From: Candidatus Aenigmatarchaeota archaeon
GTDB taxonomy: Archaea > Aenigmatarchaeota > Aenigmatarchaeia > CG10238-14
Assembly (NCBI GenBank): GCA_044343545.1
Contig: JAWBZR010000004.1
Coordinates: 1-51,027, forward strand
Direction of reading: 5' to 3'
Length of the DNA stretch: 51,027 bases
A program made the position numbers and the translations under genes. The number at the start of each line of letters is the position of its first letter. Positions within the stretch are counted from its first letter, which is position 1. Below, piece by piece: positions 4,839-51,027 of this stretch. The notes under the pieces are model-generated. The model made no database searches, was not told where the DNA came from, and saw only the letters and a program-made list of their open reading frames with translations.

Positions 4839-4865
4839 AGAATTATTCTTTGGATTTTCAAGTAT

Positions 4866-5024: not shown

Positions 5025-5066
5025 CGTCACTCACTGCAATTAATATTGTGTAAATAAAAGTATAAA

Positions 5067-5318: not shown

Positions 5319-5376
5319 GAAGTAAAATTTGTATGCAAATTTAATAAATTTTTTGATTCAAAACCAAGCAAAGACT

Positions 5377-5459
5377 AGCCTCAGGCGGGGATCGAACCCG
5401 CGACCTATCGCTTTCACTCCCTTACGAGGCGATCGCTCTACCAGCTGAGCTACTGAGGC
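5377..5459 (-). tRNA. tRNA-Thr(CGT) with a 10-nt insertion (intron) in the anticodon loop
   Basis: Acceptor GCCTCAG/CTGAGGC with discriminator U; D-arm GCTC/GAGC; anticodon stem ATCGC/GCGAT enclosing a 17-nt loop CTCGTAAGGGAGTGAAA; T-arm GCGGG-TTCGATC-CCCGC; no encoded CCA. Confidence 0.9.
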
Positions 5460-5524
5460 CTTAAAAGTTTAATAAATTCCAACTACATATAAATATAACA
5501 CTTTTGACTTTCTTGGGGTTTTTT

Positions 5525-6517: not shown

Positions 6518-6548
6518 ATTTTATTTTAAAAAAGAAAAAAATATTTTT

Positions 6549-34493: not shown

Positions 34494-34497
34494 ATGC

Positions 34498-34908
34498 ATG
34501 AAAGATTATATGCAAATGCTTGAAGAAGCGCTAAATAAATTATCCGAAGAGAAAAAATTAGATGTGAGATTTGAAATACCAAAACCATCTGTATTTATTT
34601 CTGGAAATAGAACATACATCAATAATTTTGTTGAAATTGCCAATACCATAAGGAGAAAGCCAGAGCATTTGTTAAAATTCTTGTCAAGAGAATTGGCATC
34701 TCCAGGTTTTTTAGAAGGCGGAAGGGCGATTTTTCAAGGAAGAATAATGGAGAGTCTTGTAGAAAGGAAGCTTGAATCTTATTATAAAGAATTTTTATAT
34801 TGCTCTGAATGCAAAAAACCAGATACTCAAATAATAAAGCAAGACAGGGTTTGGATATTAAAGTGTGAGGCTTGTGGGGCAAAGACGCCTGTCAGGCAAA
34901 TAAAATAG
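34498..34908 (+). CDS. eif2b: Translation initiation factor aIF-2 beta
   Basis: RFEIPK...NFVEIANTIRRKPEHLLKFLSRELASPG and CSECKKPDT...CEACGA motifs. Confidence 0.96.
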   Translation: MKDYMQMLEEALNKLSEEKKLDVRFEIPKPSVFISGNRTYINNFVEIANTIRRKPEHLLKFLSRELASPGFLEGGRAIFQGRIMESLVERKLESYYKEFLYCSECKKPDTQIIKQDRVWILKCEACGAKTPVRQIK

Positions 34909-34944
34909 AATGCTTTTAATTTAAAAAAACAAATTTTAAAAATT

Positions 34945-36450: not shown

Positions 36451-36474
36451 ATTTTCACAAAATATAAAAAAATC

Positions 36475-37731
36475 ATGAAACGCATCATGATAATAGCTAT
36501 GGTTTTGCTCTTAATCCCTGTGGTAATAGCAATACAATGCTTTTTAAGGACAAATAGCTGTGAAAGCGGAGAGATTTGCTTATTTTCTAGGTATCAACAA
36601 GATAATAGCCATGTCGGCAATTGCTCCGCATATAGCTTGCTAACGTGTTGCTCAGACCCATTTTTAAGGAAGGCTGAAGTCAAAACATCTTGCGGCTTGG
36701 GCGAAAATGGTACCATAGCAATGTTTAACTACACTAATGCACATGCAGAAATTTTCGAGGCAAACAATTATCCCTACAAAGTTTGCGTGAGTTGTCCTTG
36801 GACGTGCACTTTAAGGACGAATTGTCTATCAGATGAATATAACTTGGCTTCGTTAAATGCAAGTACAAACTCTCATATAGCAACGCCAAACTATTACGCG
36901 AATCAAGTTTGTTGCAAAAGAGAATCCACACCACCCAATTATTCCAACTTGGGTCAAAACTCAACTGTTGTAGCTTTCGGAGGTTCGGTGAAAATTTACG
37001 CATATTGGCAAGATGAAGCTAATTTGTCTTACGTGATTTTGTCTACAAACGAAACAGGCACGTGGGAAAATAAAACAGCTTATAATTCACCTTTGAAAGT
37101 GGATGCGAATAATGGTTGGAGTAACTTCACTTGGCAGAACACTTCGGTTTACGGTGGAACTACTGTGGCATGGAAATTGTACGCCAATGATACGTGTGGC
37201 AATTGGAGAGAAACTGGAATAAATTTTTTTACCATCGAGCAAATACTTTCATTTCAAATTTCCCCAAAATTAATGGAGGGCATATTTTTTACAAATTTGA
37301 ATGGTTCGAAATACAACAAGCAAGAAAATATTGACATAGGTATATGGAACAATGCCACGTGGAATTACAACAACACGCCTCAACCTGGAGATAAAAAGAC
37401 ACTTTATTGGATTTATAATTCTGGTAACACCCTTCAAGATTTTTGTTTGAAAGCGAACACAAACCTCTTATGCAGTATAGGAGATTGCACTGGAAATTAC
37501 ATATCTGCAAACAATATTGCTTGGCAAAACTCGACAATAAATAGTGAGACATATCCAAATTTCGATACTTCGAAAAGGCTTGATACGTCTTACGTCAAGA
37601 TTGCAACAAACGTTCAACCTCAACAATACGTGTACTTTAGATTTTGGCTTTTTGGCGAGCCCTACAAGCCATCAGGCATTTACAATACTACCTTTTCCGT
37701 CAAAAACGTTTTGGCCGGACAAAGCTGCTAA
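36475..37731 (+). CDS. Secreted protein: three Cys-rich N(S/A)H repeats, an Ig-like domain and a C-terminal pilin-like domain (putative tip adhesin)
   Basis: Signal peptide; C-terminal ~165 aa aligns by eye with 47534-48154 and 49334-49975. Confidence 0.7.
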   Translation: MKRIMIIAMVLLLIPVVIAIQCFLRTNSCESGEICLFSRYQQDNSHVGNCSAYSLLTCCSDPFLRKAEVKTSCGLGENGTIAMFNYTNAHAEIFEANNYPYKVCVSCPWTCTLRTNCLSDEYNLASLNASTNSHIATPNYYANQVCCKRESTPPNYSNLGQNSTVVAFGGSVKIYAYWQDEANLSYVILSTNETGTWENKTAYNSPLKVDANNGWSNFTWQNTSVYGGTTVAWKLYANDTCGNWRETGINFFTIEQILSFQISPKLMEGIFFTNLNGSKYNKQENIDIGIWNNATWNYNNTPQPGDKKTLYWIYNSGNTLQDFCLKANTNLLCSIGDCTGNYISANNIAWQNSTINSETYPNFDTSKRLDTSYVKIATNVQPQQYVYFRFWLFGEPYKPSGIYNTTFSVKNVLAGQSC

Positions 37732-38889
37732 TTTTTTTTCAAATATTTGCTTTATTTCCTCATTTTGATAATAATCCCAAACGTTGGTGAGCCATTCAAA
37801 TGTCTTTTTAAGTAACGATTCCATTTCTCCATCCCACGCATTTTTTTGAATCATCTTGCTCCTAAGCAAATCTATTTGATTAATTGTTTGCAGTATCTCT
37901 TCTCTATCGAAACTCAAGTTTAGCATGTTAATTAACCGGAGAAACTTTATTTGATAGTTATAGCTTTCCAATCCCGAAGGTATACTTGCTTTTAAAGAAT
38001 TTGTTAAAGAGGCGACTTCGCTTATTACATTCATCAATTTTTGTTTTTCACTTTCCACATCCTTTTTTGCTTCTAATTTTGTCTGCTCTATGAAGGTTTT
38101 TAATTCATTCAAATAGTTTTTGTTCAATTCTTGAACATTCTTTTTGACCATTTCTTCTAAAAGTTTCTGTGCCGCGTCTTTTTCTATCATCTTTGTAACT
38201 TTGATGCTTATACCGTCTAGCATTTTGACTATGTCTATAGTCATGTCATCAAGCTTTTGTATTTTCGATTTAACATTTTCGACATCTTTCATCTTGCTTT
38301 CTAGCTCAGCAAATATGGTTTCTACTTTTCCCGCCAATCTATCTACGTAAAGCTTTGTATCATCTATCATTTGTATTTTTTCATGAAGCTTGTTATACAT
38401 GGAAATCAAATTATCCAAGCTTTTTATTTTTTCAAGAACTATCCTCAAAGATTGATTGTCTCTTTTCAAAACGGCAACCAAACTTTTCAATGCTTCCAAG
38501 TCAGCTTGAAGCCTTGTAATTTCGGCCTCTTTTTTTTGTAATTCCTTTGAAAATTTTTCTGGTTGTATTTGCTCAACTGCATCAATAGTTTTTTCTATCT
38601 TCGCCTCTAACGAGCTGAATCTTTTATCTAATTCCAAAAAAGATGATCTCAACTCTCCTATTTCTTCGGAAATTCTCGAAATTCTTTCGTTAATGTCATC
38701 TTTTATATCTTCAAAAGCAGAAAACTTTCCTTCCAACTTTTCAACTCTCAATAGCAAATCTATGTTATTTATTTCTGTTTGCTTTTTTTCCTGCAAAACC
38801 TTTTTTTCCTCTTCAACCTTTTGGACAGGAATTTCTTTTATCACGCCATACCTTTCTTTTAATTCTTCCTTTTTTTTGGGTACAATCAT
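37672..38889 (-). CDS. Cytoplasmic long coiled-coil protein
   Basis: Heptad-rich Glu/Lys/Leu sequence; no signal peptide or TM helix; ATGA overlap with the giant ATPase gene. Confidence 0.75.
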   Translation of the reverse strand: MIVPKKKEELKERYGVIKEIPVQKVEEEKKVLQEKKQTEINNIDLLLRVEKLEGKFSAFEDIKDDINERISRISEEIGELRSSFLELDKRFSSLEAKIEKTIDAVEQIQPEKFSKELQKKEAEITRLQADLEALKSLVAVLKRDNQSLRIVLEKIKSLDNLISMYNKLHEKIQMIDDTKLYVDRLAGKVETIFAELESKMKDVENVKSKIQKLDDMTIDIVKMLDGISIKVTKMIEKDAAQKLLEEMVKKNVQELNKNYLNELKTFIEQTKLEAKKDVESEKQKLMNVISEVASLTNSLKASIPSGLESYNYQIKFLRLINMLNLSFDREEILQTINQIDLLRSKMIQKNAWDGEMESLLKKTFEWLTNVWDYYQNEEIKQIFEKKLAALSGQNVFDGKGSIVNA

Positions 38890-41800
38890 TTACTCAACCC
38901 CAACTTTTTTTCTAAAGATTCTATGTATATTTCCGCAACTCTAAACATACCTTTCTTCAGCTTCTCTTTGGCTAATTTCAATTCTATCTTTAAATCAAAC
39001 ACATCCTTTCCTTCTCTTTCCAATCTCTCTATTTCCTGTTCTATTTTTTCGATTCTGGAATTATATTCTTTATACATTTGCATTTCCTGTTCGCTTATTT
39101 TATGAGGCATGTGCTTTGGTGGCTTGAAAGCGACGAACCAAGGCAAGCCTTTATTGTATTTTGGATTCTGAATCATACCTATACCTACTTCTTCTTTCGC
39201 AACTCTTCTTGCATACTCTAACCCATACTTCTTTTCGATTCTTTGAAGATCGCCTAAACTTTTTGTGTGCATTTGTATTTCTGTGAGCACGTTACCTTTT
39301 ATGGCTTCCTTAAAGTCTGACAAAACTTGAGAAACCATTATCAAGCCGATGCCCCACTTTCTAAATTCCCTGCATGCCCTTTCCAAAGCAATGTAGCCAC
39401 CTTTACCTCCATATTTTTCTAACAATCTATGAACCTCATCAAAAACTATTATGAGTCTTGGTTTCGTCGTTTCTTCCCAACTTTCACTGAATATAGAATT
39501 TATGATATTCGTTACAGCCTCATCATACTCGCCAGGCTTTAATTTGTTTAAAACAAACACGGTAATTTCTCCAGGATTCATGTATTTCTTTAAATCTATC
39601 TTTGCTTTGGGGTTCGTCATCTCATAAATATTACCTGGATATGATTTTGTATCATCTAAACTCATTCCGTGTTTCTTGTAATACTTTAACACATTTTCAT
39701 CTTTGCATGGTTTTACAAATCCTGTCCATTGAGCTGTTGGGTCGAAAACGACAACAGGTAGTTTTTTATCGAGAAGTTCCTCAGCAAAAACACTTGCAGT
39801 CACAGACTTTCCTGCTCCTGTCGAGCCAGCAATTATTACGTGTGTCATTAAATCTACAGAATCAAAAGTAGCTTTAACATCAGTTTCAGCTATCTTTCCA
39901 ATAGTTAAATCGCCTTTCGGCAACAAATTGAAATCTACTGGAAAGATGTATTTGAATTTCGATTTCTTCCACTTTTGATATCTTCTCACAGTCAAAACTA
40001 GTGCAACTATGCCTAATAATGAAGCGAAGACAATAAGAGCGTATCTTATAGTTTTTGCATTAATTATACTCAAAGCCACTTCAAAACTATCTATGGATGA
40101 GAGAATTTCATCATCATAACTTGCATTAACCATAACATAATACTTGCCACTTGATATGTTTGCAGGTAAACGTACATACTTTATAGCTTGATAAGGCGTC
40201 TTTACATAATTTATTTCATAAGCTTCATAAATCACATCTCCTCCCTTTATGGGTTTTATTGTGTAATTCATTTGCGAAAGAAATTCTTTTTTTTGGCCTA
40301 AACTAAATATGCTTACTTCGAAAGCTAAAGTTTCGTTCGGTTTCAAATTCTTTGTTATCACTTTAACTGTCAATTGAACTTCTTGTATATCTTTGCTCAC
40401 AAAAACAGTGACAGGCAATCTCTCCTTTCTTCCCGATGCAGAAACAACTATTTCGCCTGTATAAGTTCCACTTTCCATGTTTTCCGGAACTATCAACTCT
40501 ATGCTTATTTCTTTTTCTTTGTTAGAAGAAACTAACACGTTTCTTTCTTTCACCGTTAATATCTTTGAAACAATTCCATTTATCGAAATCTCTGCTTGCA
40601 ATGGTTGAGATGCGAGATTTGAAAGCCACAAAACATATCCTCTTTTCGTTCCAGGGCGCACATAATCTGTTGTAAGGTTCGTTTTCACGCTAAAACCTAA
40701 CATGCAATCTTGAGGACAGGAAAATGGATTTTCATCAGCATCGCAAACACCATTTCCGCATTTGCTTGTGTAAGATCCGCCTATACCACCACCTCCGCTT
40801 CCACTCGTTTGAGGACCAGCCAAACCACTTCCACATTCTCCGCAATCTTGAACGCAATTGACACAAGATTCGCCCATTCCGCAAATGCTGTTACCGCAGA
40901 TCTCTGCCTCGAATGCATAATATGCGGAAGCATTGTCTTGAATGGTGAAAATTTTGTGTTTTTCCGCATCCAAACTCGAGTTTACCTGAATCCATCCAGA
41001 TTTGCAAGTGCCGTTCCAATCACTGCACTTGTAAATCACCAAGGCCGGAGCATAATCTATTTCCATCAATTTTTTGGAGTAATCAAAGTAAATTGTGATG
41101 TTGGAATACGCAAAGTTCGTTGATATATACAATCCACCTACTTCATGCCTCCACGGGACAGGAGGATTGAGCAAAGAAAGCGGAATGGCCGAAATGTTTA
41201 ACGGGTTTGTTATGTTATCAGCAAGTTGTCTTTCTGCGGTTAGAGTGGCATTCAAGTTATTGAATATCAAGAAATGCCTTTGACCGATATCATCATCTAT
41301 TTCTGCTTTCAAATCATAGTTTCTTTTGTGTAACGTCATATTATGAAAGCCTGAAGGGTACGTGAAATTGTGTACCACTATTTGTGTGCCAGGCCTATAA
41401 AAAGTGAATCTTTTGGGATAGTTTGTTTCAGCGTAAAGTTGTATAGGCAAGTAAACTTCAAACCACGCTGTAACATTTGTTGTGAAGTTAGACGTATCAT
41501 TAGCAAACAAAAACACATCATAATCGCCAACTTCATTTAAATTTGTAAAGTTTATTTCCCATATAGTTTGTCTTTTATCAGGTGTTTTATTGCTTAAAAC
41601 GATTTCTTGCTCACTCCCATCAGGATATTTAACTAAACCCCAAACAGCATCTACACCATACCAATCGCTTACATCTACATTCAGCTTGACATCACCACCT
41701 TTTAACGTTGAATTTATGGTAATGTTGTTTATTTTTGGCGGCATAGTATCTACTTCTATTATCAAGATATCTGCAAAGTCTTGAGCAACAGAAACGTTGA

Positions 41801-44800
41801 ATTTTCTATACTCATCCAATTCTTGATCGCTTATATTACACAATATTTTATACCAACCCTCAGGGACTTCTTCGGGAGATGAAATATTCCACGTATAATT
41901 CACTCTTCCTGTGGGATAGATCGTGTTCAGCTCAGCCAATATGCTCTGATTGCCTTCATAAACCTTTACTATACTTACCTTATAACCATCCAGCTTGATA
42001 TTCGTGGTGTTAGCATCGCTAACTTCACAAACTATATCTATTTTCCTCAAGGTTTCTGTTCTATTGTAAGTTCCGTTTATCGGATGTATCATCTTGACGC
42101 TCGACCATCCGTATATGTCGATGCTTCTGTTACTCGAGCCAAATTCATAAACATTCCCGTAAGCCTTCAATGATAGTAACAACTTTCCTGGATTGCATTC
42201 CACCCGCCAACTTGTATTACCTTCATTTAATGTTGTTTGGTATGGCAAATAACCATTAGTGGTGCAATTTAATATCCAAATTGTGTCGTAATTTTCTGTT
42301 GGAGCGCCGCAAGAATCTGATATTGAAAAGGACAAGTTCATTTCGTTGCCCTTGTGATATATTTCGTTAGGTTGAGGAGATAAAATGTTTGCGTTTAACC
42401 TATCCTTTAAATAGATTTGATTTTGATCCGAACTTTTATTATACAAATAATAATCATTTGCATTTCCACTCAAGCTCACATTTAAATTGTAAGCACCCAA
42501 TTCATACGAGCAATCTGGTATGAATCTCACAAGGCAAATTCCGTTAGATTGCGTTTGATTCGCGCCTATAACGGTTTGATTCAAGTAAAAGGAGCAAACA
42601 TAGCCAGATTGATTTATTGTTTTGCCAAATTCATCATATATTTTTGCTTCTAAAATCTTTTGTTGATTTCTTGTGATATTGCTTTTCATACTTTCGGTTA
42701 AGTTTACGTTTATTTTCCCGTAAATCCCAATTGTGAAATTTTCGCTGATACTATCATTGTAATAACTATCATTGTAAACTCCCACTTTCCACCATCTTAA
42801 CCCAGGTATGTAAGATGAGTTTGGAATAAGCTCGTATTTGCAATGACCTGAAGAATTGCTCACAGCATCATAGTGCATCCAATGAGTATCGTTAAAACTA
42901 ACAAAGAATCTACATTTAACGTTACCTATACTTTCATTAATCACAGTATCGTTTATTAATGCGACCAGCCGCACGCTTTCAGTTCTGTTAACCGATGCAC
43001 CCATCCCTTCTATCGCTATTGCTTGCGTAGTGTGCTTACTCACATTAGGAGCATAATAAATCGAGTGAACAAACCAATCGTGATATTCTACGTTTTCGTC
43101 AAAATCCTTGAGTTGAATGGACAGCAAATTAAAACCAGTCCAAGAAATGTTACTTTCAAGCACGAAACTTACTTCCTCTCCAATATTGGTGTTTCCTGTA
43201 GAGTTTGTCTCATTTATGCAGTACCATTCAGCAGATGAAACATTAACCTTGTTTAAGTCAAAAGTATGTGTAAGATTTAAGCAAATTCTCACGCTAACAT
43301 TGTTTCCTTCAGCATCGCTTATATTGAATTTAACGGTAAAATTTTTTCCCCAAAAATCTTCTGCTGGAGTTATTGAAAAATTAAATGCAACGGGAGGATT
43401 ATTGGCAGAGCCTGATAATTCGTAAAGCACGAAGCTTCTGTTAGTATGTGGTTGCTTCCAAGAAAAGAAATCTATCTTACCATCACCATTTGTGTCTTGT
43501 TTACAAACGTAAAACTCATCATCACCTATCATTATTTTTGTGTATGTTGGATTTGACGTGTTGCAATTCGTCTGGCTGTTTGGAGGAGTGATATCATAAA
43601 ATACATTGTTGCCAAACCAGTCAACTTCAAGTTTAGAGTTGCCCGTAATATAGTTATCATCCAAGCTAGCATTCAAACTCACATTAAAGAATATTTGCGT
43701 CGTGACATTCCATACAGTCACATTCCTTTTCCAAAAACCATACTCTGAAACACCATCGCTTTCATTGTAAAAAATTGGTATAGATTTGCTCATAGTATCG
43801 TCCCACAGATAATCAAAAGTGGCGTTTGCCGAAATTTGCCTGAAGCTAATGTTACAAACTTTCCTTCCATCTATGATAACAACTTGGTATCTTTTTCCAT
43901 TGAAATCACAAACGAAAGCATCTTGATCTATTGTGATGTAATTGAAAGCCACTTCGTGAGCGGGAGGCTTCAAGTAACTTATGTTTTTTATTTGGTTACC
44001 AACACTTTCATTTCCTCTTATTTCAGCAATTCTTGACCAATATGGCGAGATGGTTACAGTAAAAATATCTGAAATGTTGTAGGAGTAAGTGATGTTTAAA
44101 GACGAAACTTTTAAAATACCTGCATAGTCAGAATGAAAAACTATAGGCACTGAGCAAAGACCATTTTCATCCCCTTCGCACGTGTTCAAATAAATTTGGA
44201 AAGCAGTATTATTTGTTACTATATCTTGCGTTCTGAATTTTCCTGGATAGAACCATTCTCTCACCCCATCATTGCCTATATCTACGTAAAGATTTGTGGG
44301 AAAATATTCAAAATTTAATATATAAAGCGTGTTCGTCGCAGGTATTATCGTGCCAGCAACTACTTCATTACCTATATCGTTAGTTAAATTGCCTATACCT
44401 ATCCCTTTGACATCATTTTCAGTCTTGTATTTCCAAACAAGAGAACCCGTTGCGTTTACTACATAAACATTATCATCATCACTTCCGAAAACTATTTCCC
44501 TCCCCTCATATTCACTCGTCACTTCACTTATTTTTATTTTATTTATCGCATAAGTGCTGAAAGAAGTGGAAAACAATATGTTGAGATTGTTATCCAGCAA
44601 GTATATTGTTCCGTTTGTCAATGCCACGGCAATTTCATCATAGCCATAACCATCTATATTACTTACATGTACATCCTTCAAGTTTCCTATGCTTCTCGAT
44701 GACTTTAAATCGCCAGTAGAATTTATGATGTAAATGTTAGAGCTTGTAACCGCAACTATTTCTTTTCCTTGATCATCACCTAAATCTCCAGCACTAACAC

Positions 44801-45482
44801 CTTCAAATGGCAAAGAAGTGGAAAACGACCAAATTTCGTTTAGATTGTTATCAAGCAAGTAAAGTTTATCTGACGCAACAATTATTTCATCAAAAGGATT
44901 ACTCGTGTTAATATCACTTATTTCTATTTCCTTTATATCATAGTTCATATTTTTGGTGCTCAACAAATTTCCGGTAGAATTTAAAACATATATTATTCTT
45001 GTACTTGCTGCAGCAACTATTTCCATCCCCCTATCGCTACTTAGATTGCCTGCCGAAACTGCAGGAACAGAGGCAGCTATGCTGTAATTCCAAATTTGAA
45101 AGCCACTTGAATTTAATAATTTCAAGTTTTGCTCAGAACCCGTGACACCAACCAAGATTTCATCCCATTCGTTATCTTCAATTATATTGCCTACAAAAAG
45201 ATCAAGAACTTGTTGTTGCGTTGATGTAATTATAGGTTTGGATATTCCTTCTATTTTTATCAAACTATCCAAAATAGTGGAGTTTTTTGGTATGTTTATC
45301 CAAACTGTTTTTTCTTCGTTGGAATTGAACACAATTTCTTTGCTTGTCGAAGAATCATTAAGTTGGTAATTGGAAAAGTTGAACGTAGGATTATTCAAGT
45401 CAAAAATAAATGTGTGCTGTTGCACGGCAAGAACGATATCGAAGCAAGAAAAGACGGCTAGGAAAAAAATCAATCTTTTCAT
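38886..45482 (-). CDS. Giant single-pass protein: extracellular FG-GAP-like beta-propeller, Ig-like and Cys-rich repeats fused to a cytoplasmic HerA/FtsK-type (DUF87-like) ATPase
   Basis: Signal MKRLIFF...; (D/E)G-x-x-EI(V/I)(V/A) propeller repeats; CGNxxC...CxxDC twice; TM at about 40045-39990; THVIIAGSTGAGKS, VVVFDPTAQW, IIVFDEVH and REFRKWGIGLIMVSQ. Confidence 0.88.
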   Translation of the reverse strand: MKRLIFFLAVFSCFDIVLAVQQHTFIFDLNNPTFNFSNYQLNDSSTSKEIVFNSNEEKTVWINIPKNSTILDSLIKIEGISKPIITSTQQQVLDLFVGNIIEDNEWDEILVGVTGSEQNLKLLNSSGFQIWNYSIAASVPAVSAGNLSSDRGMEIVAAASTRIIYVLNSTGNLLSTKNMNYDIKEIEISDINTSNPFDEIIVASDKLYLLDNNLNEIWSFSTSLPFEGVSAGDLGDDQGKEIVAVTSSNIYIINSTGDLKSSRSIGNLKDVHVSNIDGYGYDEIAVALTNGTIYLLDNNLNILFSTSFSTYAINKIKISEVTSEYEGREIVFGSDDDNVYVVNATGSLVWKYKTENDVKGIGIGNLTNDIGNEVVAGTIIPATNTLYILNFEYFPTNLYVDIGNDGVREWFYPGKFRTQDIVTNNTAFQIYLNTCEGDENGLCSVPIVFHSDYAGILKVSSLNITYSYNISDIFTVTISPYWSRIAEIRGNESVGNQIKNISYLKPPAHEVAFNYITIDQDAFVCDFNGKRYQVVIIDGRKVCNISFRQISANATFDYLWDDTMSKSIPIFYNESDGVSEYGFWKRNVTVWNVTTQIFFNVSLNASLDDNYITGNSKLEVDWFGNNVFYDITPPNSQTNCNTSNPTYTKIMIGDDEFYVCKQDTNGDGKIDFFSWKQPHTNRSFVLYELSGSANNPPVAFNFSITPAEDFWGKNFTVKFNISDAEGNNVSVRICLNLTHTFDLNKVNVSSAEWYCINETNSTGNTNIGEEVSFVLESNISWTGFNLLSIQLKDFDENVEYHDWFVHSIYYAPNVSKHTTQAIAIEGMGASVNRTESVRLVALINDTVINESIGNVKCRFFVSFNDTHWMHYDAVSNSSGHCKYELIPNSSYIPGLRWWKVGVYNDSYYNDSISENFTIGIYGKINVNLTESMKSNITRNQQKILEAKIYDEFGKTINQSGYVCSFYLNQTVIGANQTQSNGICLVRFIPDCSYELGAYNLNVSLSGNANDYYLYNKSSDQNQIYLKDRLNANILSPQPNEIYHKGNEMNLSFSISDSCGAPTENYDTIWILNCTTNGYLPYQTTLNEGNTSWRVECNPGKLLLSLKAYGNVYEFGSSNRSIDIYGWSSVKMIHPINGTYNRTETLRKIDIVCEVSDANTTNIKLDGYKVSIVKVYEGNQSILAELNTIYPTGRVNYTWNISSPEEVPEGWYKILCNISDQELDEYRKFNVSVAQDFADILIIEVDTMPPKINNITINSTLKGGDVKLNVDVSDWYGVDAVWGLVKYPDGSEQEIVLSNKTPDKRQTIWEINFTNLNEVGDYDVFLFANDTSNFTTNVTAWFEVYLPIQLYAETNYPKRFTFYRPGTQIVVHNFTYPSGFHNMTLHKRNYDLKAEIDDDIGQRHFLIFNNLNATLTAERQLADNITNPLNISAIPLSLLNPPVPWRHEVGGLYISTNFAYSNITIYFDYSKKLMEIDYAPALVIYKCSDWNGTCKSGWIQVNSSLDAEKHKIFTIQDNASAYYAFEAEICGNSICGMGESCVNCVQDCGECGSGLAGPQTSGSGGGGIGGSYTSKCGNGVCDADENPFSCPQDCMLGFSVKTNLTTDYVRPGTKRGYVLWLSNLASQPLQAEISINGIVSKILTVKERNVLVSSNKEKEISIELIVPENMESGTYTGEIVVSASGRKERLPVTVFVSKDIQEVQLTVKVITKNLKPNETLAFEVSIFSLGQKKEFLSQMNYTIKPIKGGDVIYEAYEINYVKTPYQAIKYVRLPANISSGKYYVMVNASYDDEILSSIDSFEVALSIINAKTIRYALIVFASLLGIVALVLTVRRYQKWKKSKFKYIFPVDFNLLPKGDLTIGKIAETDVKATFDSVDLMTHVIIAGSTGAGKSVTASVFAEELLDKKLPVVVFDPTAQWTGFVKPCKDENVLKYYKKHGMSLDDTKSYPGNIYEMTNPKAKIDLKKYMNPGEITVFVLNKLKPGEYDEAVTNIINSIFSESWEETTKPRLIIVFDEVHRLLEKYGGKGGYIALERACREFRKWGIGLIMVSQVLSDFKEAIKGNVLTEIQMHTKSLGDLQRIEKKYGLEYARRVAKEEVGIGMIQNPKYNKGLPWFVAFKPPKHMPHKISEQEMQMYKEYNSRIEKIEQEIERLEREGKDVFDLKIELKLAKEKLKKGMFRVAEIYIESLEKKLGLSK

Positions 45483-45523
45483 TTCAATGCTCATAAAATC
45501 TATTATTGATTTTATAATTAAAT

Positions 45524-47497
45524 TTATGGAGTGCCTCCCAACCTTTCTTTTATTTCTTTCAACCTTTCTTCAACCTTTCTCTCTTTTTGTTTCTTATAAG
45601 CTACATACGCCAAATATATCGCCAATAGCAAAATTATTATCATTATAAAAAGCTCGAGCAATGACAAAGACACGTATTTTATCAAGATATTTATTTTCGG
45701 GCAAAAGTTCTTGTAATCTTTCATTTCAATAGAAACTTCAACACTTTCTTTTGCATCTCTTACTGCTTTCATGAAAGGAGGGAGTGCAAATATCTTTACC
45801 TTATAATATCTTCCTTTCATCAATATGTTCGCCTTTTCCATCAAGATTTCATAATCTTCTATTACTTTCAGAAATAACTCTTGCGATTTTTTGTAATCTT
45901 CTTTTTTCATGTATTCCTCGGCTAATGCAAATATATTGTTTGCTTCATCCATTTGCATTTTCAAGGAGGAAATATCCAAACAATTAAGTAATAAAATCTC
46001 GCTGGAATTTTTTTTAAGCATCTTCGCTTTTTCGTAAAGCATCAACGTCAAGTTCCTTTCATCGGTGGACAACCAAAAAATCAATCTTTCCTCATTGCTT
46101 TCTACTTCATTAACGGCTTTGACATTAACCTGATAAACGCCTTCCTTGGCATTTAATGAAGGTTTTATGAAAACCAAGAAACTTTTTTCTTCACCTACTT
46201 TCAGCTTGTCAATTTTGTAAGGTGTAATGTAGATCCATTCATTTGGCACTCCATCCACTTTTAATTTTATGCTTGACAGCTCCTTTTCGCCTGTATTTTT
46301 CACCTTTACTTCAAAGCTGCTTATGTTGCCTACAACACCCCCTATCTTGTATTTGTTCGCCTTTATCTCCAGCTTTTTGATTTCTATCTTCATTTGAGGA
46401 AAAGTTTCTCCACCTGAAATGGGTTGAGCGGGTTGTTTACATTCGATCAAATTAAATGTATCATAAGAAGAAATGTTTACTTTCCAATTTTCTGAAGTCA
46501 CATCCAAAATGGTGTGAAACGTGTACAACCCGCTATCAGCATTAGGCAAATTTAAGCTCACTATTTTTTCTAAATTATCTACAACAGCTATAGTTTCTTT
46601 TTTTTGAGCGTATGCATTGCTACCTTGTTGAACAATATAAGTAAGGTTTACATCCATCATACCTGGCGGAAACATTTTTAACACGTTTATTTTCGCTTTT
46701 ACTTCCCCTCCCTTACACGATTCTTTATATTGCGGAAGCACCTCGGTTTGCACGTCAAAAATAGCACTTGTCTGCACGTGAATCTTTACAGGTATATTCA
46801 AGACGACTTCATTATTTATATATGCCGCAATGTTGCCTTCATAATCTCCAGGCAAAGTATTCCAAGGCAAATCTATAAATATCAGAACTCTCGTGTAATT
46901 CCACGTTTCTGGGCTCAAATAAACAGGATTTTGTGAAAAATATATCCAATCTTTTATCTCCCCACTTTTGTTAAGAGTTACAGTTACACCATTGCACGCA
47001 AACATAAGCCACAGATAAAGATCTTTATTTATAAAATCTCCAGGAAAAACGGTTTCTTCTATGAAAGAAGGCGATGATACTAAAGTACCATATGATTGCT
47101 TTATTCTAAAGCTTGTTTGATTTCTAATGGTCATTCCGCTATAATTCAAATCTATAATCACGTGATACATTCCAGCAATATCACTATCTTTAACCTCTCT
47201 CAAAAAATAGTAGACTCTCTTTTCCAAAGGATTTATAGGTTGATCGTTCCAACTAACATTGTCATAAATTTCCAAATATTGATTCAATATGGTTTTGCTG
47301 AGGTTGAATAAGGTAGGTAAGTTTCCTACATTATTAACTTCTGATGTTATGTTGATTGTTTCGTTAGGGCAATAAGCTAAGGAAGACAGCTTGAAATCAA
47401 AAAGAAGATTGGGTTTGGCAGTCACGGACGAATTCATTATGACTTGGGCCGAGCATATAGGAAGCGAGATTAATAAAAATATCAACAGCAATCGCAT
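45524..47497 (-). CDS. Secreted multi-Ig protein with a helical stalk and C-terminal TM anchor
   Basis: Signal peptide followed by QVIMNSSV; CARDB/NEW3-like VNNVGN and VKNTGE domains; C-terminal TM helix and basic tail. Confidence 0.75.
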   Translation of the reverse strand: MRLLLIFLLISLPICSAQVIMNSSVTAKPNLLFDFKLSSLAYCPNETINITSEVNNVGNLPTLFNLSKTILNQYLEIYDNVSWNDQPINPLEKRVYYFLREVKDSDIAGMYHVIIDLNYSGMTIRNQTSFRIKQSYGTLVSSPSFIEETVFPGDFINKDLYLWLMFACNGVTVTLNKSGEIKDWIYFSQNPVYLSPETWNYTRVLIFIDLPWNTLPGDYEGNIAAYINNEVVLNIPVKIHVQTSAIFDVQTEVLPQYKESCKGGEVKAKINVLKMFPPGMMDVNLTYIVQQGSNAYAQKKETIAVVDNLEKIVSLNLPNADSGLYTFHTILDVTSENWKVNISSYDTFNLIECKQPAQPISGGETFPQMKIEIKKLEIKANKYKIGGVVGNISSFEVKVKNTGEKELSSIKLKVDGVPNEWIYITPYKIDKLKVGEEKSFLVFIKPSLNAKEGVYQVNVKAVNEVESNEERLIFWLSTDERNLTLMLYEKAKMLKKNSSEILLLNCLDISSLKMQMDEANNIFALAEEYMKKEDYKKSQELFLKVIEDYEILMEKANILMKGRYYKVKIFALPPFMKAVRDAKESVEVSIEMKDYKNFCPKINILIKYVSLSLLELFIMIIILLLAIYLAYVAYKKQKERKVEERLKEIKERLGGTP

Positions 47498-47520
47498 AAT
47501 TATTTTCTTATGATTCAGAA

Positions 47521-47530
47521 TTAATATTAA
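47521..47530. promoter_or_regulatory. Palindromic bidirectional TATA element TTAATATTAA
   Basis: Centre lies about 28-30 nt from ATG 47497 (-) and from in-frame GTG 47555 (+). Confidence 0.5.
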
Positions 47531-47533
47531 AGT

Positions 47534-48154
47534 ATGTCAAGAGAATTATTTAATGTGAAGGCAGAAAGGATATTGTTGATGTTCATTGTTTTTTGTCTTT
47601 TCTTGAAAGTGAATGAATCGGCAGACTTCATTTCTATCATGAACAGTTCTCTTGTACCCTATAACTTTTACTACATACAAACAAGTGCCGAGCTTTCCAA
47701 GGGAATATTATTCACGAATTCTACCGGCTCTGAAGAAAACAAGCAGTATCCTTTAATAGCAGGAAGTTGGGCCAACAACGCGATATGGAATTACAACAAG
47801 TCTAGCGGAAAAACAGAATATTGGGTGTTTGTTTATGTTATGGGAGTGGAATTGGATTTGTGTCACAATGCGAAGAATCATTTGTGTTCCACTCAAAATT
47901 GTAGCGGGCCTAACAACTATTTGATAGATATCAAGAATGCGAGATGGAGCATTTCGCTTCAGAATGATCTGGAAAATCCATCCCTAGCAGATTCCATTAG
48001 CTTTTCTCTTCAGCCTGAAAAATTTGCGACGAAAATAGGTTCGCCAACGACAATCTATTTTAGATATTGGCTTGACGTCCCGCCAAATTCTTCTGCAGCA
48101 AGCTATAACACTACCTATCAGATAACGAGTGTGGTGAGTGGATATGAATGCTAA
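47534..48154 (+). CDS. Secreted pilin-like subunit (paralog family A)
   Basis: Signal peptide; ISIMNSSL, GILFTNSTG, NNAIWNY, YFRYWLDVPPN and YNTTYQI; ends in Cys; start may be GTG 47555. Confidence 0.7.
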   Translation: MSRELFNVKAERILLMFIVFCLFLKVNESADFISIMNSSLVPYNFYYIQTSAELSKGILFTNSTGSEENKQYPLIAGSWANNAIWNYNKSSGKTEYWVFVYVMGVELDLCHNAKNHLCSTQNCSGPNNYLIDIKNARWSISLQNDLENPSLADSISFSLQPEKFATKIGSPTTIYFRYWLDVPPNSSAASYNTTYQITSVVSGYEC

Positions 48155-48650
48155 GCTTTTGCTTTTACTTTTAATTCCGATTTGTGCCTCAAAAACGTTG
48201 GGTGTATTTCCAACAAATGAAACTGTGGTAATAAACCCTTTCACAACACTCAATTTTGCATTTTATCTTCTCAATCCTTCTGATGAAGACGTTTATTTAA
48301 CTATAAATTTGTCGTGTGTTTGCAACAAGGAAATATATCAATATGCAGATGTATATCCTAAGCAAATCATCGTAGAAAAAAACACTACATTGTTGAACCC
48401 CAAACCAGTTTTGGTGAGAATAAAAAATCCTTTATTCTTGGAAAAGAAATTCAAAGGTGTAAAATTTATTCAGCCTATATTCGGTCAAAAGCAGCTTAGT
48501 TGCAGACTATCTGCAGTGTCGGAAGGACAAACTTCTTTAACAATTACATCTCAGTTGAATGCGAAACTAGTAGGAATAAATCCATTGAAATTATTCGCGT
48601 TAATCTTTCTATTATCATTTCTTCTTGCCATCTTTCTTCTTAGAGCTTAA
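48138..48650 (+). CDS. Membrane-anchored Ig-fold chaperone-like protein (paralog family B)
   Basis: Signal peptide; LGVFP...FYLLNPS; C-terminal TM helix; aligns with 48615-49319. Confidence 0.6.
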   Translation: MDMNAKLLLLLLIPICASKTLGVFPTNETVVINPFTTLNFAFYLLNPSDEDVYLTINLSCVCNKEIYQYADVYPKQIIVEKNTTLLNPKPVLVRIKNPLFLEKKFKGVKFIQPIFGQKQLSCRLSAVSEGQTSLTITSQLNAKLVGINPLKLFALIFLLSFLLAIFLLRA

Positions 48651-49319
48651 TTTCTTGTAAACAAATATCGTCGTTAATATCACCAGCAAGCAAAGGATTA
48701 TAAAGCTAGATAAAGGCATGCCCCTTGCATTCACTTCCAAGCTTGAACCAACGGAAGGGGTGACCCCCATACTTCCAAAACTAGAAGCATAAACGTCAGC
48801 AACTATCAAGCCCGTCAGCTTTTTTTCGCCTATGAACAAGCTATAGTACGGAAGAGTGAAACTGCCACCGTATTTTTTATTAAAAATTTTTATGAAAAAA
48901 TTTATCGCCTCTGGCGTGTATATTTTCAAGCTATTTTTGATTAAAAATTTTGGAGCAAAGATGATTTTTACGCTGGGTGCCTTTTCACCAAAAGAATTTG
49001 GTTGGATCGTGACATCATCCTTGTCAAAAACAAAAAACGATTTATGATCTATGGTTCTCTCTGCAACTTTTTTTCCAAATATTCTTACTTCTTTTGTGCA
49101 ATCCTTGCATTCGAAATATACCCTTGCTTTTATTTCATATATAGATGGATTTATCAATCTAATTGTGGTCACGTAATAATCAAAAACACTTCCTGATAAA
49201 TTTATGGAATAAGTGCTTATACCTATACCAACACCCTCGCTTGCTTCAGCTTGATAAAACCAAAAGAAAAAAAATAATATGATGAAGCAATACTTAAATA
49301 AAATTATTTTTTCTTTCAT
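48615..49319 (-). CDS. Membrane-anchored Ig-fold chaperone-like protein (paralog family B)
   Basis: Signal peptide; IGIS...IRLINPS and FIGEKKL; C-terminal TM helix and Lys tail. Confidence 0.6.
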   Translation of the reverse strand: MKEKIILFKYCFIILFFFFWFYQAEASEGVGIGISTYSINLSGSVFDYYVTTIRLINPSIYEIKARVYFECKDCTKEVRIFGKKVAERTIDHKSFFVFDKDDVTIQPNSFGEKAPSVKIIFAPKFLIKNSLKIYTPEAINFFIKIFNKKYGGSFTLPYYSLFIGEKKLTGLIVADVYASSFGSMGVTPSVGSSLEVNARGMPLSSFIILCLLVILTTIFVYKKLSSKKKDGKKK

Positions 49320-49333
49320 TTAACATAACCTTT

Positions 49334-49975
49334 TCAACAATTGCAGGTTCCAAACGATTGTGAGATTTCTACCGCTCTTATCTTGAAAGTATTGTTGTAA
49401 ACTCCTGAAGGTGCATTGTTTGGCCTGGGATCTATCCAGTATCTCATGTATATATAGCTACCAGGCGCCAAATTTCCCGCTATTAATTGATATGTATCTA
49501 TATCAGGAAAATAATAGTTGCTGTTGGGTGGAGAGTGAGTGGCGAATGTAGCAGTCGTACCATTTGCCCAACCAACGCCTCCATCAGTTGTGTAATTAAC
49601 GTAAAGCATGTCCACATCTTTAGCACAATCACCGCTGCTACATTTTAAGTTGTCGCACGCGCAGTGTGCTATTTTAATGTTAATCGTGTTTCCTGAACAT
49701 GCTTGAGCACTGTATACCGTACCACCTGATGCGCCCCAATAATTGCCCGTAGCATTGTTAAGTACAAGCATATTTGTTATAGGATATTGCACTCCAATAG
49801 TTGTGGTATTTGTAAAGAATATACCAGCCGAATAGTTGCCGGATAATTGAACACAAATAGGTTGCTGTATGCTAGCATTCATTATTGAAGTATACTCTTG
49901 TTGCCCACCTGTAACTGTTAGAGCTAGACATGCTATTAAGATGGCGATAGGAATTAGCAAATAATTTTCATTCAT
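49334..49975 (-). CDS. Secreted pilin-like subunit (paralog family A)
   Basis: Signal peptide; TSIMNASI, GIFFTNTT, NNATGNY, YMRYWIDPRPNNAPSGVYNNTFKI; ends GTCNC. Confidence 0.7.
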   Translation of the reverse strand: MNENYLLIPIAILIACLALTVTGGQQEYTSIMNASIQQPICVQLSGNYSAGIFFTNTTTIGVQYPITNMLVLNNATGNYWGASGGTVYSAQACSGNTINIKIAHCACDNLKCSSGDCAKDVDMLYVNYTTDGGVGWANGTTATFATHSPPNSNYYFPDIDTYQLIAGNLAPGSYIYMRYWIDPRPNNAPSGVYNNTFKIRAVEISQSFGTCNC

Positions 49976-50074
49976 AAATCTATTTATGGTATTAATTATT
50001 ATAAAAAATTTTGCCTGGTGGAAAATTATTTTAAAAAATTATTTTAATTAAATCCTAAAAGCAAAATAATAATT

Positions 50075-51027
50075 ATGAGAAAAATTTTGTTAGTGATATT
50101 TATCTTGTTTTCATTACCTATCATCAATGCCCAAACCCAATCACATCCTTTGAGCCAAATCACTCCAATAGATACGCATCTTAACATGAACAATTACAAC
50201 ATCATTAAAGTGAACAATTTAGGTGTAAACACCGCCTTGCCAAATAAAACAGTTGATATAGTTGGTGATCTGCAAGCAAGTGGAACTATTTTTGGAAATA
50301 TAATAAAAGTTGGAGGAGGGTTCGAGGGCAATGGTTTAACAATAGATCAATATGGTAATATATTGACAAAAGGTAACTTGACTTATTCTGGATACACTTA
50401 TATAATCGATACACTTCGTTTCAACGGAACTGCTGAAGTGCCTTTTGGTGTTAAGGGTGGTTATATATTTCCTGGAACATGTAATACCGGTGTTAATTGT
50501 TTGCAATCAAATTATTATTTCTATGTCGAATCCGGTAGAATAAAAGCAAATTCGGAATTTGAAGCAACGCAACTTTATGATGCAGGTAATAGAGTATTGA
50601 CTGGTTTAATAGGGGGAGGCGGTATTACAGTTAGCGGAGCAGCGCCAACACCCATAGTTTCTATAAATTATAATACAGACTTTCTTGGTTGGCAAAACTT
50701 GACATCCTATCCACCTGCTTGCCCGGCAGGACAATTCATAAGACAATTAGGTGATACAATAGTTTGCGAAACACCTGGTGTAGGTCCTGGTGGCGTAACA
50801 GGCTCTGGAACTGCTGGTTATATACCTATGTGGAATGGCACTCAAAGCATAAATAACTCTATAATTTATCAGTCAGGAAGTAATGTTGGAATTGGAACTA
50901 CTTCACCAATTAAAAAATTAGATGTAGTTGGAGATGTGAACGCAACTACGGCTGTTTATTCAGCTCAAGGATATTATGTCGGGACTACGCAGGTTATTGA
51001 TAGCTCAAGAAATGTTAATGCAGCAAG
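50075..51027 (+). CDS. Secreted phage-tail-fibre-like beta-repeat protein; 3' truncated (absent from the ORF track)
   Basis: Manual translation is open to the window end: MRKILLVIFILFSLPIINAQ..., CPAGQFIRQLGDTIVC, GSGTAGYIPMWNG, GSNVGIGTTSPIKKLDVVGDV. Confidence 0.75.
   Translation, partial: MRKILLVIFILFSLPIINAQTQSHPLSQITPIDTHLNMNNYNIIKVNNLGVNTALPNKTVDIVGDLQASGTIFGNIIKVGGGFEGNGLTIDQYGNILTKGNLTYSGYTYIIDTLRFNGTAEVPFGVKGGYIFPGTCNTGVNCLQSNYYFYVESGRIKANSEFEATQLYDAGNRVLTGLIGGGGITVSGAAPTPIVSINYNTDFLGWQNLTSYPPACPAGQFIRQLGDTIVCETPGVGPGGVTGSGTAGYIPMWNGTQSINNSIIYQSGSNVGIGTTSPIKKLDVVGDVNATTAVYSAQGYYVGTTQVIDSSRNVNAA

What the first reader, a model, noticed from the sequence alone, without database searches (positions are those of the whole stretch)
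47534..49975. Three paralogous secreted subunits with a shared fold signature and invariant terminal Cys: candidate donor-strand pilins
Seen: 49334-49975, 47534-48154 and the C-terminus of 36475-37731 share GI(F/L)FTN, NNA(T/I)(W/G)NY, A-x3-4-C-x4-C (ACDNLKCSSGDC, AKNHLCSTQNC, ANTNLLCSIGDC) and Y(F/M)R(Y/F)W(L/I)...Y-N-x-T-(F/Y)-x-(I/V). All three end in Cys (GTCNC, GYEC, GQSC). Known: chaperone-usher pilins, WxL proteins and TasA-like/archaeal bundling pilins are Ig-like subunits ending in a G-x-Y-x-x-T-type strand, and several of them polymerise by donor-strand complementation. Inference: this is a new polymerising subunit family, possibly locked by disulfides.
Basis: partly seen in the sequence, partly recalled or inferred. 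Interest (0 to 1): 0.8.

Follow-up and report, generated by a model that had tools for sequence, protein, structure and literature searches.

The report
Archaeal pilin-like subunits with tethered chaperones
Three related secreted proteins of a hot-spring Aenigmarchaeota (DPANN) archaeon fold like bacterial chaperone-usher pilins and sit beside membrane-tethered PapD-like proteins, a tip-adhesin-like protein and a membrane anchor, so they probably build an undescribed adhesive surface fibre, although polymerisation has not been shown.

Summary
The three ORFs are true paralogues (BLASTP 2e-13 to 2e-23). All the quoted motifs are present, and all three end in Cys.

They belong to an unnamed archaeal family:
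- It has 191 clusters at 50% identity.
- It has no Pfam, NCBIfam or PDB sequence match.
- The domain occurs alone (about 180-230 aa) or at the extreme C-terminus of long surface proteins.

An AlphaFold2 model of the 213-aa subunit (pLDDT 91.5) retrieves mainly donor-strand pilins, including CfaB, CupE, PapE, Csu, Fim, Caf1, the Sulfolobus thread and CanA. The scores are weak (best E 7.7e-3).

The genes next to each subunit encode homologous proteins with a C-terminal membrane anchor. The model of one of them (pLDDT 86.4) retrieves PapD-like/ASH/MSP domains and true pilus chaperones (E 2.5e-5 to 1e-3).

A module of adhesin, subunit, small anchored protein and membrane anchor recurs in all six distant loci examined. 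The subunits and the anchor share an N-terminal h-M-N-x-S/T-[IVL] segment, which the tip-like long proteins lack.

Best reading (about 0.55): an usher-less, chaperone-assisted donor-strand fibre. It would be an archaeal counterpart of the CPR Pam and Gram-positive WxL/Elr pili described in 2026.

The terminal Cys pairs by covariation with a Cys on a core strand. This suggests an intramolecular staple rather than an inter-subunit lock. No multimer model could be run.

The parts
49334..49975 (-). A1, a 213-aa pilin-like subunit and the likely major subunit. It has a signal peptide (aa 1-~24), an N-terminal extension, an Ig-like core (aa 42-203) and a Cys tail.
   Evidence: ORF. It has 51 close homologues at 40-80% identity in Aenigmarchaeota. 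AF2 pLDDT is 91.5. The top Foldseek PDB hits are donor-strand pilins.
49868..49885 (-). A1 residues 31-36, IMNASI: the conserved core of the N-terminal extension and the candidate donor strand. It contains an N-glycosylation sequon.
   Evidence: Translation. It is the most conserved N-terminal segment, yet in the monomer model it is coil with lower pLDDT (64-78).
47534..48154 (+). A2, a 206-aa paralogous pilin-like subunit. The IMNSSL motif lies at 47636-47653.
   Evidence: Orthologues occupy the same position in L001-L005.
37183..37731 (+). The C-terminal A domain of the 418-aa protein (gene 36475-37731). This is the candidate tip adhesin: Cys-rich N-terminal repeats, a middle Ig-like domain and an acceptor pilin-like domain. 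It lacks the M-N-x-S/T motif.
48615..49319 (-). B1, 234 aa: signal peptide, PapD-like/ASH-like beta-sandwich ectodomain, C-terminal TM helix and a Lys-rich tail. It is the candidate membrane-tethered chaperone for A1.
   Evidence: AF2 pLDDT is 86.4. Foldseek PDB gave 49 hits at E <= 1e-3: CEP192 PapD-like 2.5e-5, FaeE 1.7e-4, Caf1M, CfaA, FimC, and WxLIP 4.1e-4. No Pfam hit.
48138..48650 (+). B2, 170 aa, a shorter homologue of B1 with a signal peptide and C-terminal TM helix. It is translationally overlapped with A2.
   Evidence: hhalign of B1 vs B2 families gives 94.8%, E 5.5e-8; HMM cross-hits.
45524..47497 (-). A 657-aa protein with a signal peptide, an N-terminal IMNSSV segment (47423-47440), CARDB/NEW3-type Ig domains and a C-terminal TM helix. 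It is the candidate base or terminator that anchors the fibre.
   Evidence: Pfam NPCBM_assoc 1.6e-6 and CARDB 1.9e-4. The N-terminal motif is conserved in orthologues and in distant loci.
38886..45494 (-). A 2202-aa surface protein (beta-propeller and Ig repeats) fused through one TM helix to a HerA/DUF87 ATPase. It is linked to the module only in Aenigmarchaeota; its role is unknown.
   Evidence: Pfam Beta-prop_CGLA 1.3e-13, DUF87 5.1e-12. Synteny holds in L001-L005. It is absent from the distant loci L006-L010 and L012.

Best explanation
The three paralogues are subunits of an usher-less, chaperone-assisted donor-strand surface fibre.

Inferred pathway:
1. A1 and A2 are exported by Sec. They are cleaved after a conserved (I/V)-(T/S)-(G/A) site and N-glycosylated.
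2. Each is an Ig-like, pilin-like domain whose last element is the strand G-x-Y-N-x-T-F-x-I-x-A-V. No strand follows it.
3. The short tail after that strand is stapled to a core strand by the conserved disulfide that uses the terminal Cys.
4. At the outer face of the membrane each subunit is held by its own neighbouring gene product. B1 or B2 is a PapD-like beta-sandwich tethered by a C-terminal TM helix, and it would complement the open edge.
5. The roughly 16-residue N-terminal extension of the next subunit (core h-M-N-[A/V]-[S/T]-[I/V]) then replaces the chaperone strand.
6. The 418-aa protein has the acceptor domain but not the N-terminal motif, and carries Cys-rich N-terminal domains. It would be the distal adhesin.
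7. The 657-aa protein has the N-terminal motif, Ig stalk domains and a TM helix. It would terminate the fibre and anchor it.

What is shown: paralogy, family extent, domain architecture, conserved synteny, predicted folds and their best structural neighbours, Cys covariation, and motif distribution.

What is inferred: signal cleavage, glycosylation, strand donation, the chaperone role, the order of subunits, and polymer formation.
For: (1) Fold. The AF2 model of A1 has pLDDT 91.5 and pTM 0.79. About 36 of its top 50 PDB neighbours are donor-strand pilus subunits: CfaB prob 0.98, CupE, PapE, Csu, FimF/G/A/I, Caf1, PapH, Saci_0406 thread and CanA.

(2) Partner. The AF2 model of B1 has pLDDT 86.4. 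It has 49 PDB neighbours at E <= 1e-3. These are dominated by the PapD-like superfamily (ASH, MSP) and by 21 entries of real pilus chaperones (FaeE, Caf1M, CfaA, FimC), plus WxLIP. B2 is homologous to B1. Each subunit gene is directly followed by a B gene.

(3) Architecture. The domain is either stand-alone or the last domain of proteins of 280-2108 aa, ending 0-5 residues from the C-terminus. There are about 40 clusters of the latter kind.

(4) Motif. N-x-S/T-h lies in the N-terminal extension in 117 of 144 stand-alone members. It is present in only 8 of 29 long proteins, against a background of 22%. The same segment directly follows the signal peptide of the anchor protein in the window, L001, L004, L007 and L009.

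(5) Strand character. Odd positions -19 to -7 are alternately hydrophobic, which is a strand-like pattern. Yet residues 23-41 are coil with lower pLDDT in the monomer model.

(6) Synteny. The A1-B1/B2-A2-anchor-giant order holds in five Aenigmarchaeota loci. The module of adhesin with C-terminal A domain, stand-alone A, small signal+TM protein and TM anchor is present in 6 of 6 distant loci, including a Methanomethylicota MAG.

(7) Precedent. Membrane-anchored chaperones, tips carrying a C-terminal pilin domain, and anchored terminators are reported for CPR Pam pili (PMC13278184) and WxL/Elr pili (10.64898/2026.10.17.759780).
Against: - Foldseek scores for the subunit are weak (best E 7.7e-3, TM 0.3-0.5, large rmsd). 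Ig-like folds cross-match easily.
- No multimer prediction was possible and no coordinates were available, so an open groove was not demonstrated.
- The conserved core of the putative donor segment is only about 5-7 residues long.
- The 418-aa protein keeps a degenerate version of the same region (INFFTI). A cis A/A' strand is therefore possible.
- The small anchored proteins of the distant loci show no detectable sequence homology to B1/B2.
- Signal-peptide cleavage was not tested. A roughly 290-aa subclass has a cytoplasmic domain and a TM helix before the A domain, so some members may stay membrane-bound.
- There is no expression evidence.
Confidence: 0.55

Rival explanations
1. Non-polymerising surface display. 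The A domain would be a docking module that binds one-to-one to the membrane-tethered B protein or to the anchor. Short (A1, A2) and long (418-aa) glycoproteins would then be held on the cell surface as individual complexes, as WxL domains were thought to work before 2026.
For: The A domain is always C-terminal on long proteins. The B proteins are membrane-anchored and encoded next to A. WxLIP is among the structural neighbours of B1. No polymer evidence exists.
Against: This does not explain why the stand-alone members and the anchor share a conserved N-terminal segment that the long proteins lack. The best structural neighbours of A are polymerising pilins. The WxL system, the model for this reading, is now reported to be a donor-strand pilus.
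Confidence: 0.22
2. Self-contained lectin-like or CBM-like glycoprotein domains of the cell envelope. The N-terminal segment would be a cis A/A' strand and a glycosylation site. The neighbouring Ig-like membrane proteins would be unrelated surface proteins.
For: CBM32 and F17-G lectin domains are among the Foldseek hits. The monomer model is confident throughout the core. A degenerate N-terminal segment is kept in the 418-aa protein.
Against: The four-part gene module is conserved across distant archaeal lineages. B1 has a PapD-like fold. Pilins outnumber lectins and CBMs among the hits for A1.
Confidence: 0.13
3. A fibre locked covalently by inter-subunit disulfides through the terminal Cys.
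For: The terminal or near-terminal Cys is nearly universal: 177 of 184 covered members have one. Covariation cannot tell intra-subunit from inter-subunit pairing.
Against: The partner Cys lies on a core strand (103/105/107), in a position that would neighbour the last strand in an Ig-type sheet. This placement is inferred from the strand order, not read from coordinates. In 69 clusters these two are the only Cys. The tail is ordered at pLDDT 85-94 in the monomer model.
Confidence: 0.1

Closest known systems
Pam pili of Candidate Phyla Radiation bacteria (PamA/B pilins, PamC/D chaperones, PamT tip, PamR terminator; bioRxiv preprint, PMC13278184)
   Same: A single-membrane organism with no usher. 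PapD-like chaperones are held in the membrane by a C-terminal TM helix. There are two pilin paralogues and two chaperone paralogues in one locus. A membrane-anchored terminator is predicted to insert its N-terminus into the last pilin. The pilins carry paired cysteines.
   Different: There is no sequence similarity. Pam pilins have two domains (a nine-strand sandwich, a linker and a truncated Ig), whereas A1 and A2 have one. Pam is reported only in CPR bacteria, and this system is archaeal. Pam is solved by cryo-EM, while everything here is predicted.
WxL/Elr pilus of Enterococcus faecalis and other Bacillota (ElrD/ElrC pilins, ElrE DUF916/DUF3324 chaperone, ElrA tip, ElrB base; bioRxiv 10.64898/2026.10.17.759780)
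   Same: A membrane-anchored chaperone. The pilin domain occurs stand-alone or as the most C-terminal domain of modular adhesins. The N-terminal donor strand is about 15 residues with a small-x-[V/I] pattern. A base subunit carries a donor strand. WxLIP is a structural neighbour of B1 (E 4.1e-4).
   Different: There is no Pfam WxL, DUF916 or DUF3324 match. Anchoring would be by a TM helix, not by sortase/LPxTG. The preprint reports that system as confined to Bacillota.
Classical and archaic chaperone-usher pili (Fim, Pap, CFA/I, Csu, CupE, Caf1)
   Same: These are the best structural neighbours of both A1 (pilins) and B1 (chaperones). The C-terminal strand has a G-x-Y motif. The tip adhesin combines a variable N-terminal domain with a C-terminal pilin domain.
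   Different: There is no outer membrane and no usher. The chaperone is tethered, not soluble, and has about one PapD-like domain plus a beta-hairpin extension instead of two Ig domains. There is no sequence similarity, and the subunits carry many N-glycosylation sequons.
Archaeal donor-strand filaments: Sulfolobus threads (Saci_0406), bundling pili (AbpA, TasA-like), Pyrodictium cannulae (CanA), haloarchaeal tafi
   Same: Archaeal, Sec- or Tat-exported, glycosylated beta-sandwich subunits joined by an N-terminal donor strand. Saci_0406 (E 0.044) and CanA (E 0.27) appear among the Foldseek hits.
   Different: No sequence match to any of them. For those filaments no chaperone has been identified: the thread gene cluster gave none, and cannulae are described as chaperone-free. 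Here a PapD-like partner is encoded beside each subunit.

Membership tests
Chaperone-usher pilins (Pfam Fimbrial and related families) | Sequence match to a fimbrial/pilin profile | tested here: not met
   No Pfam or NCBIfam family at E <= 0.1 for A1, A2 or the 418-aa protein. None among the 103 family members scanned. No PDB sequence hit with either of two profiles.
Chaperone-usher pilins | Incomplete Ig-like fold ending in strand F, with an acceptor groove | tested here: inconclusive
   The top Foldseek hits are CU pilins (CfaB prob 0.98), but E >= 7.7e-3 and TM is 0.3-0.5. The chain ends about 10 residues after the last strand.
Chaperone-usher pilins | N-terminal donor strand inserted into the neighbouring subunit | not testable with these tools
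Indirect support comes from a conserved, alternating, poorly ordered N-terminal extension. That extension is enriched in stand-alone members and in the anchor.
Chaperone-usher systems | PapD-like chaperone encoded in the locus | tested here: met
   This is met at the fold level only. The B1 model has 49 PDB neighbours at E <= 1e-3, including FaeE, Caf1M, CfaA and FimC. There is no PapD_N/PapD_C Pfam hit.
Chaperone-usher systems | Outer-membrane usher | tested here: not met
   No Usher family hit in any neighbour. Archaea of this kind have a single membrane (general knowledge).
WxL/Elr pilus system | WxL domain in the pilins and DUF916/DUF3324 in the chaperone | tested here: not met
   No such Pfam hits. 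There is only a structural hit of B1 to WxLIP 9i1y at E 4.1e-4.
WxL/Elr pilus system | Sortase/LPxTG base subunit | tested here: not met
   The candidate base (657 aa) ends in a TM helix and a basic tail, not LPxTG.
CPR Pam pilus system | C-terminally TM-anchored PapD-like chaperones beside the pilin genes | tested here: met
   B1 and B2 each have a signal peptide, a beta-sandwich ectodomain and a C-terminal TM helix, compared with the description in PMC13278184.
CPR Pam pilus system | Two-domain pilin (N-terminal nine-strand sandwich, linker strand, truncated Ig) | tested here: not met
   A1 is a single domain of about 170 residues.
TasA / archaeal bundling pilin (Peptidase_M73) and Saci_0406 threads | Sequence membership | tested here: not met
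   No Pfam hit. No PDB sequence hit at E <= 10 other than chance ribosomal matches. Foldseek gives 7pnb at only E 0.044.

The most novel reading that the evidence does not exclude
Archaea possess their own chaperone-guided, usher-less donor-strand pilus pathway. A membrane-tethered PapD-like protein would prime a disulfide-stapled, N-glycosylated pilin. The fibre would be capped by modular adhesins that carry the same domain at their C-terminus, and it would end in a TM-anchored subunit that supplies only a donor strand. The pathway would be widespread in DPANN archaea and reach Methanomethylicota and Thermoplasmata MAGs. It would provide the first archaeal pilus chaperone and could be the main host-attachment organelle of these symbionts.
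Probability: 0.45. Interest if true: 0.85.

Novelty: new variant of a known kind. Interest (0 to 1): 0.7.

Why it matters
All archaeal donor-strand filaments solved so far (threads, bundling pili, cannulae, tafi) lack an identified assembly factor. The two chaperone-guided, usher-less systems described in 2026 are reported as confined to CPR bacteria and to Bacillota.

A PapD-like tethered chaperone encoded next to each pilin-like gene in archaea would extend that assembly logic to the third domain. It would also name a concrete, testable attachment apparatus for uncultured DPANN symbionts, whose host contact is poorly understood. Finally, it would define a sequence family of at least 191 clusters that no database annotates.

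Tried and rejected
- **Sequence libraries.** Pfam and NCBIfam scans of all locus proteins found nothing for families A and B. PDB sequence searches with two profiles gave nothing meaningful.
- **Viral structures.** The BFVD fold search gave no convincing hit, so a viral origin was not pursued.
- **Distant small anchored proteins.** Profile-profile tests against B1/B2 matched only the TM helix or were not significant. They are treated as positional analogues only.
- **Expression.** Three metatranscriptomes from the same hot-spring study gave zero reads on 34000-51027, with about 3-5% of each run sampled.
- **Tip proteins and the N-terminal region.** I tested whether long tip-like proteins always start at profile position about 42. 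They do not: starts range from 13 to 90. I therefore used the narrower N-x-S/T-h motif test.
- **Class III (type IV pilin) signal peptide.** Rejected, because the hydrophobic stretch precedes the conserved (I/V)(T/S)(G/A) site rather than following it.
Full report
**Observation.**
They are clearly paralogous. BLASTP gives 2e-13 for A1/A2, 2e-23 for A2/418 and 3e-17 for A1/418, and the three-way alignment has 36 invariant columns. Every quoted motif is present, and the C-termini read GTCNC, GYEC and GQSC. In the 418-aa protein the homologous part is residues about 237-418. An HMM scan of all six frames finds exactly three members of this family (A) in the window.

**Organism and family.**
- The window has about 35% G+C. 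Named close homologues of A1 come from Candidatus Aenigmarchaeota MAGs, and DNA runs holding the locus are hot-spring metagenomes.
- A1 has 51 close relatives at 40-80% identity, all 195-229 aa long.
- A profile search of 1.84 billion representatives finds 191 clusters at E <= 1e-3.
- Named members come from Aenigmarchaeota, a 'Micrarchaeota' MAG, a Thermoplasmata MAG and a Methanomethylicota/Verstraetearchaeota MAG.
- No Pfam or NCBIfam family matches A1, A2, the 418-aa protein or any of 103 family members. Two family profiles find no meaningful sequence match in the PDB. The family is therefore unnamed.

**Architecture.**
The domain occurs in two forms. About 150 clusters are stand-alone proteins of 180-230 aa. 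About 40 clusters have it as the very last domain of proteins of 280-2108 aa, ending 0-5 residues from the C-terminus. This is the pattern seen for pilins and tip adhesins in chaperone-usher pili, and for the WxL pilus adhesins.

**Fold of the subunit.**
AlphaFold2 with a 53-sequence alignment gives pLDDT 91.5 and pTM 0.79. The model has these parts:
- an N-terminal helix (residues 4-22);
- a coil of lower confidence (residues 23-41, pLDDT 64-78);
- a beta core from residue 42 to 203;
- a short ordered tail.

Foldseek against the PDB returns no hit below E 1e-3, but about 36 of the top 50 are donor-strand pilus subunits. They include CfaB (E 7.7e-3, prob 0.98), CupE, PapE, Csu, FimF/G/A/I, Caf1, PapH, the Sulfolobus thread Saci_0406 and CanA. 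The remainder are CBM32, F17-G lectin domains and a few others. The viral library gives nothing convincing. The similarity is consistent in kind but weak in score.

**Fold of the neighbours.**
- Each subunit gene is followed by a gene for a small protein with a signal peptide and a C-terminal TM helix with a basic tail. These are B1 (48615-49319(-), 234 aa) and B2 (48138-48650(+), 170 aa).
- B1 and B2 are homologous (hhalign 94.8%, E 5.5e-8).
- The B1 model (pLDDT 86.4) has 49 PDB neighbours at E <= 1e-3.
- The top hits are PapD-like/ASH domains of CEP192, OCRL and HYDIN, and MSP domains.
- There are also 21 entries of genuine pilus chaperones (FaeE, Caf1M, CfaA, FimC), plus WxLIP.

Two independent models from adjacent genes therefore point to the two halves of a chaperone-pilin pair.

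**N-terminal segment.**
Across 142 stand-alone members the hydrophobic stretch is followed by (I/V)-(T/S)-(G/A). This fits the -3/-1 rule for signal peptidase I, although it was not tested with a predictor. An extension of about 16 residues comes next, with the conserved core [M/S]-N-[A/V]-[S/T]-[I/V]. Then comes the first core strand. Odd positions from -19 to -7 are alternately hydrophobic.

The N-x-S/T-h core is present in 117 of 144 stand-alone members but in only 8 of 29 long proteins. The long-protein rate equals the 22% background.

The same segment sits directly after the signal peptide of the 657-aa protein (45524-47497(-)), which has CARDB/NEW3 domains and a C-terminal TM helix. It reads IMNSSV there, against IMNASI and IMNSSL in A1 and A2. 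It also follows the signal peptide of that protein's counterparts in L001, L004, L007 and L009.

So the segment is shared by the repeating subunits and the anchored protein, is missing from the tip-like proteins, and is poorly ordered in the monomer model. That is what a donor strand would look like. This remains an inference. The 418-aa protein keeps a degenerate version (INFFTI), so a cis strand is not excluded.

**Cysteines.**
In nearly all of the 184 clusters whose core is covered, the Cys count is even. The commonest pattern (69 clusters) has exactly two Cys: one at core position 103 and one at the C-terminus.
- The group of A2 and the 418-aa protein adds the C112-C117 loop pair.
- The A1 group uses C105/C107 with C211/C213 and adds the covarying C41-C94 pair.

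Overall, 177 of 184 have a Cys within five residues of the end. The invariant terminal Cys is therefore half of a conserved disulfide to the strand at 100-106. Because the tail is confidently ordered in the monomer model, I read it as an intramolecular staple behind the last strand. Covariation cannot formally exclude an inter-subunit bond.

**Synteny.**
- In five Aenigmarchaeota loci the order is A1-B1 / B2-A2 / 657-type anchor / giant HerA-fused surface protein. A sixth locus, L011, from a MAG labelled Micrarchaeota, is cut after A1-B1/B2.
- In six of six distant loci (L006-L010, L012) the stand-alone subunit is preceded by a larger protein that ends in the A domain.
- In those loci it is followed by a small signal+TM protein. 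Then comes an anchor of about 380-650 aa that starts with a signal peptide. A C-terminal TM helix is visible in four of the six; L007 shows none in its last 70 residues and L008 is cut.
- The distant small proteins are not detectably homologous to B1/B2, so their equivalence is positional only.
- The giant HerA protein is absent from the distant loci. It is therefore an Aenigmarchaeota-specific addition and not part of the core.

**Mechanism proposed.**
The locus encodes a Sec-exported, glycosylated fibre assembled at the outer face of the single membrane by tethered PapD-like chaperones through donor-strand exchange.
- The 418-aa protein would be the tip.
- A1 would be the shaft, possibly with A2. 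A1 is the more conserved of the two, which suggests it is the major subunit.
- The 657-aa protein would be the base and terminator.

This is the logic reported in 2026 for the CPR Pam pilus and for the Gram-positive WxL/Elr pilus. The published archaeal donor-strand filaments have no identified chaperone. My confidence in the fibre model is about 0.55. The main rivals are a non-polymerising display module (0.22) and a self-contained lectin-like domain (0.13).

**Limits.**
- No multimer could be predicted and no coordinates could be inspected.
- The genome-wide search tool was shut.
- Three metatranscriptomes gave no reads.
- Earlier AI notes of this scan report similar modules in other DPANN genomes. 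I treat these as leads, not evidence. What I re-tested here is listed separately.

**Verdict.**
This is a new variant of a known kind, with interest 0.7.

Noticed in passing
P0086, P0094, P0100, P0104, P0110, P0112, P0123, P0142, P0143, P0157, P0191: A subclass of about 270-300 aa carries a roughly 100-aa Lys/Glu-rich, coiled-coil-like N-terminal (presumably cytoplasmic) domain. This is followed by a TM helix, the ITG(F/Y)A site and the A domain. These could be membrane-anchored base subunits, or evidence that the helix is not always cleaved.
   Followed up: partly
L007:10680-11432(-), L008:4404-5183(-): A ParA/MinD-type ATPase gene sits on the opposite strand inside the module of two distant loci, between the pilin-like gene and the small anchored protein.
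   Followed up: no
window 48615-48650, 48138-48154 and 47498-47533: The convergent B1 and B2 genes overlap by 36 nt at their 3' ends. The A2 stop overlaps the B2 start by 17 nt. A2 and the 657-aa gene diverge from an intergenic gap of only 36 bp.
   Followed up: no
window 38886-45494(-) and 37672-38889(-): The giant beta-propeller/Ig surface protein fused to a HerA/DUF87 ATPase, and the coiled-coil protein coupled to it, accompany the module only in Aenigmarchaeota loci. They are absent from the six distant loci.
   Followed up: partly
window 36940-37180 (418-aa protein, aa ~155-235); L010:7071-7964; P0197: The middle domain of the 418-aa protein (W-x-N-x-T ... Y-A-N-D-T-x-G-N) recurs just before the A domain in short adhesin-like proteins of other lineages.
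   Followed up: no
L010:1815-3269, 5752-7092; L012:2118-3491, 4106-5575: Radical SAM and B12-binding radical SAM genes lie a few kb upstream of the module in two unrelated distant loci. This may be coincidence or a link to a modification step.
   Followed up: no
window 50075-51025(+): An ORF that runs off the window end has a signal peptide and Gly-rich repeats. It is not part of the conserved synteny in L001-L005.
   Followed up: no
L001:1-1744: Type IV pilus genes (T2SSE ATPase and two T2SSF) lie about 8 kb from the module in one related genome. They are separated from it by replication-factor genes and are not conserved in L003.
   Followed up: no
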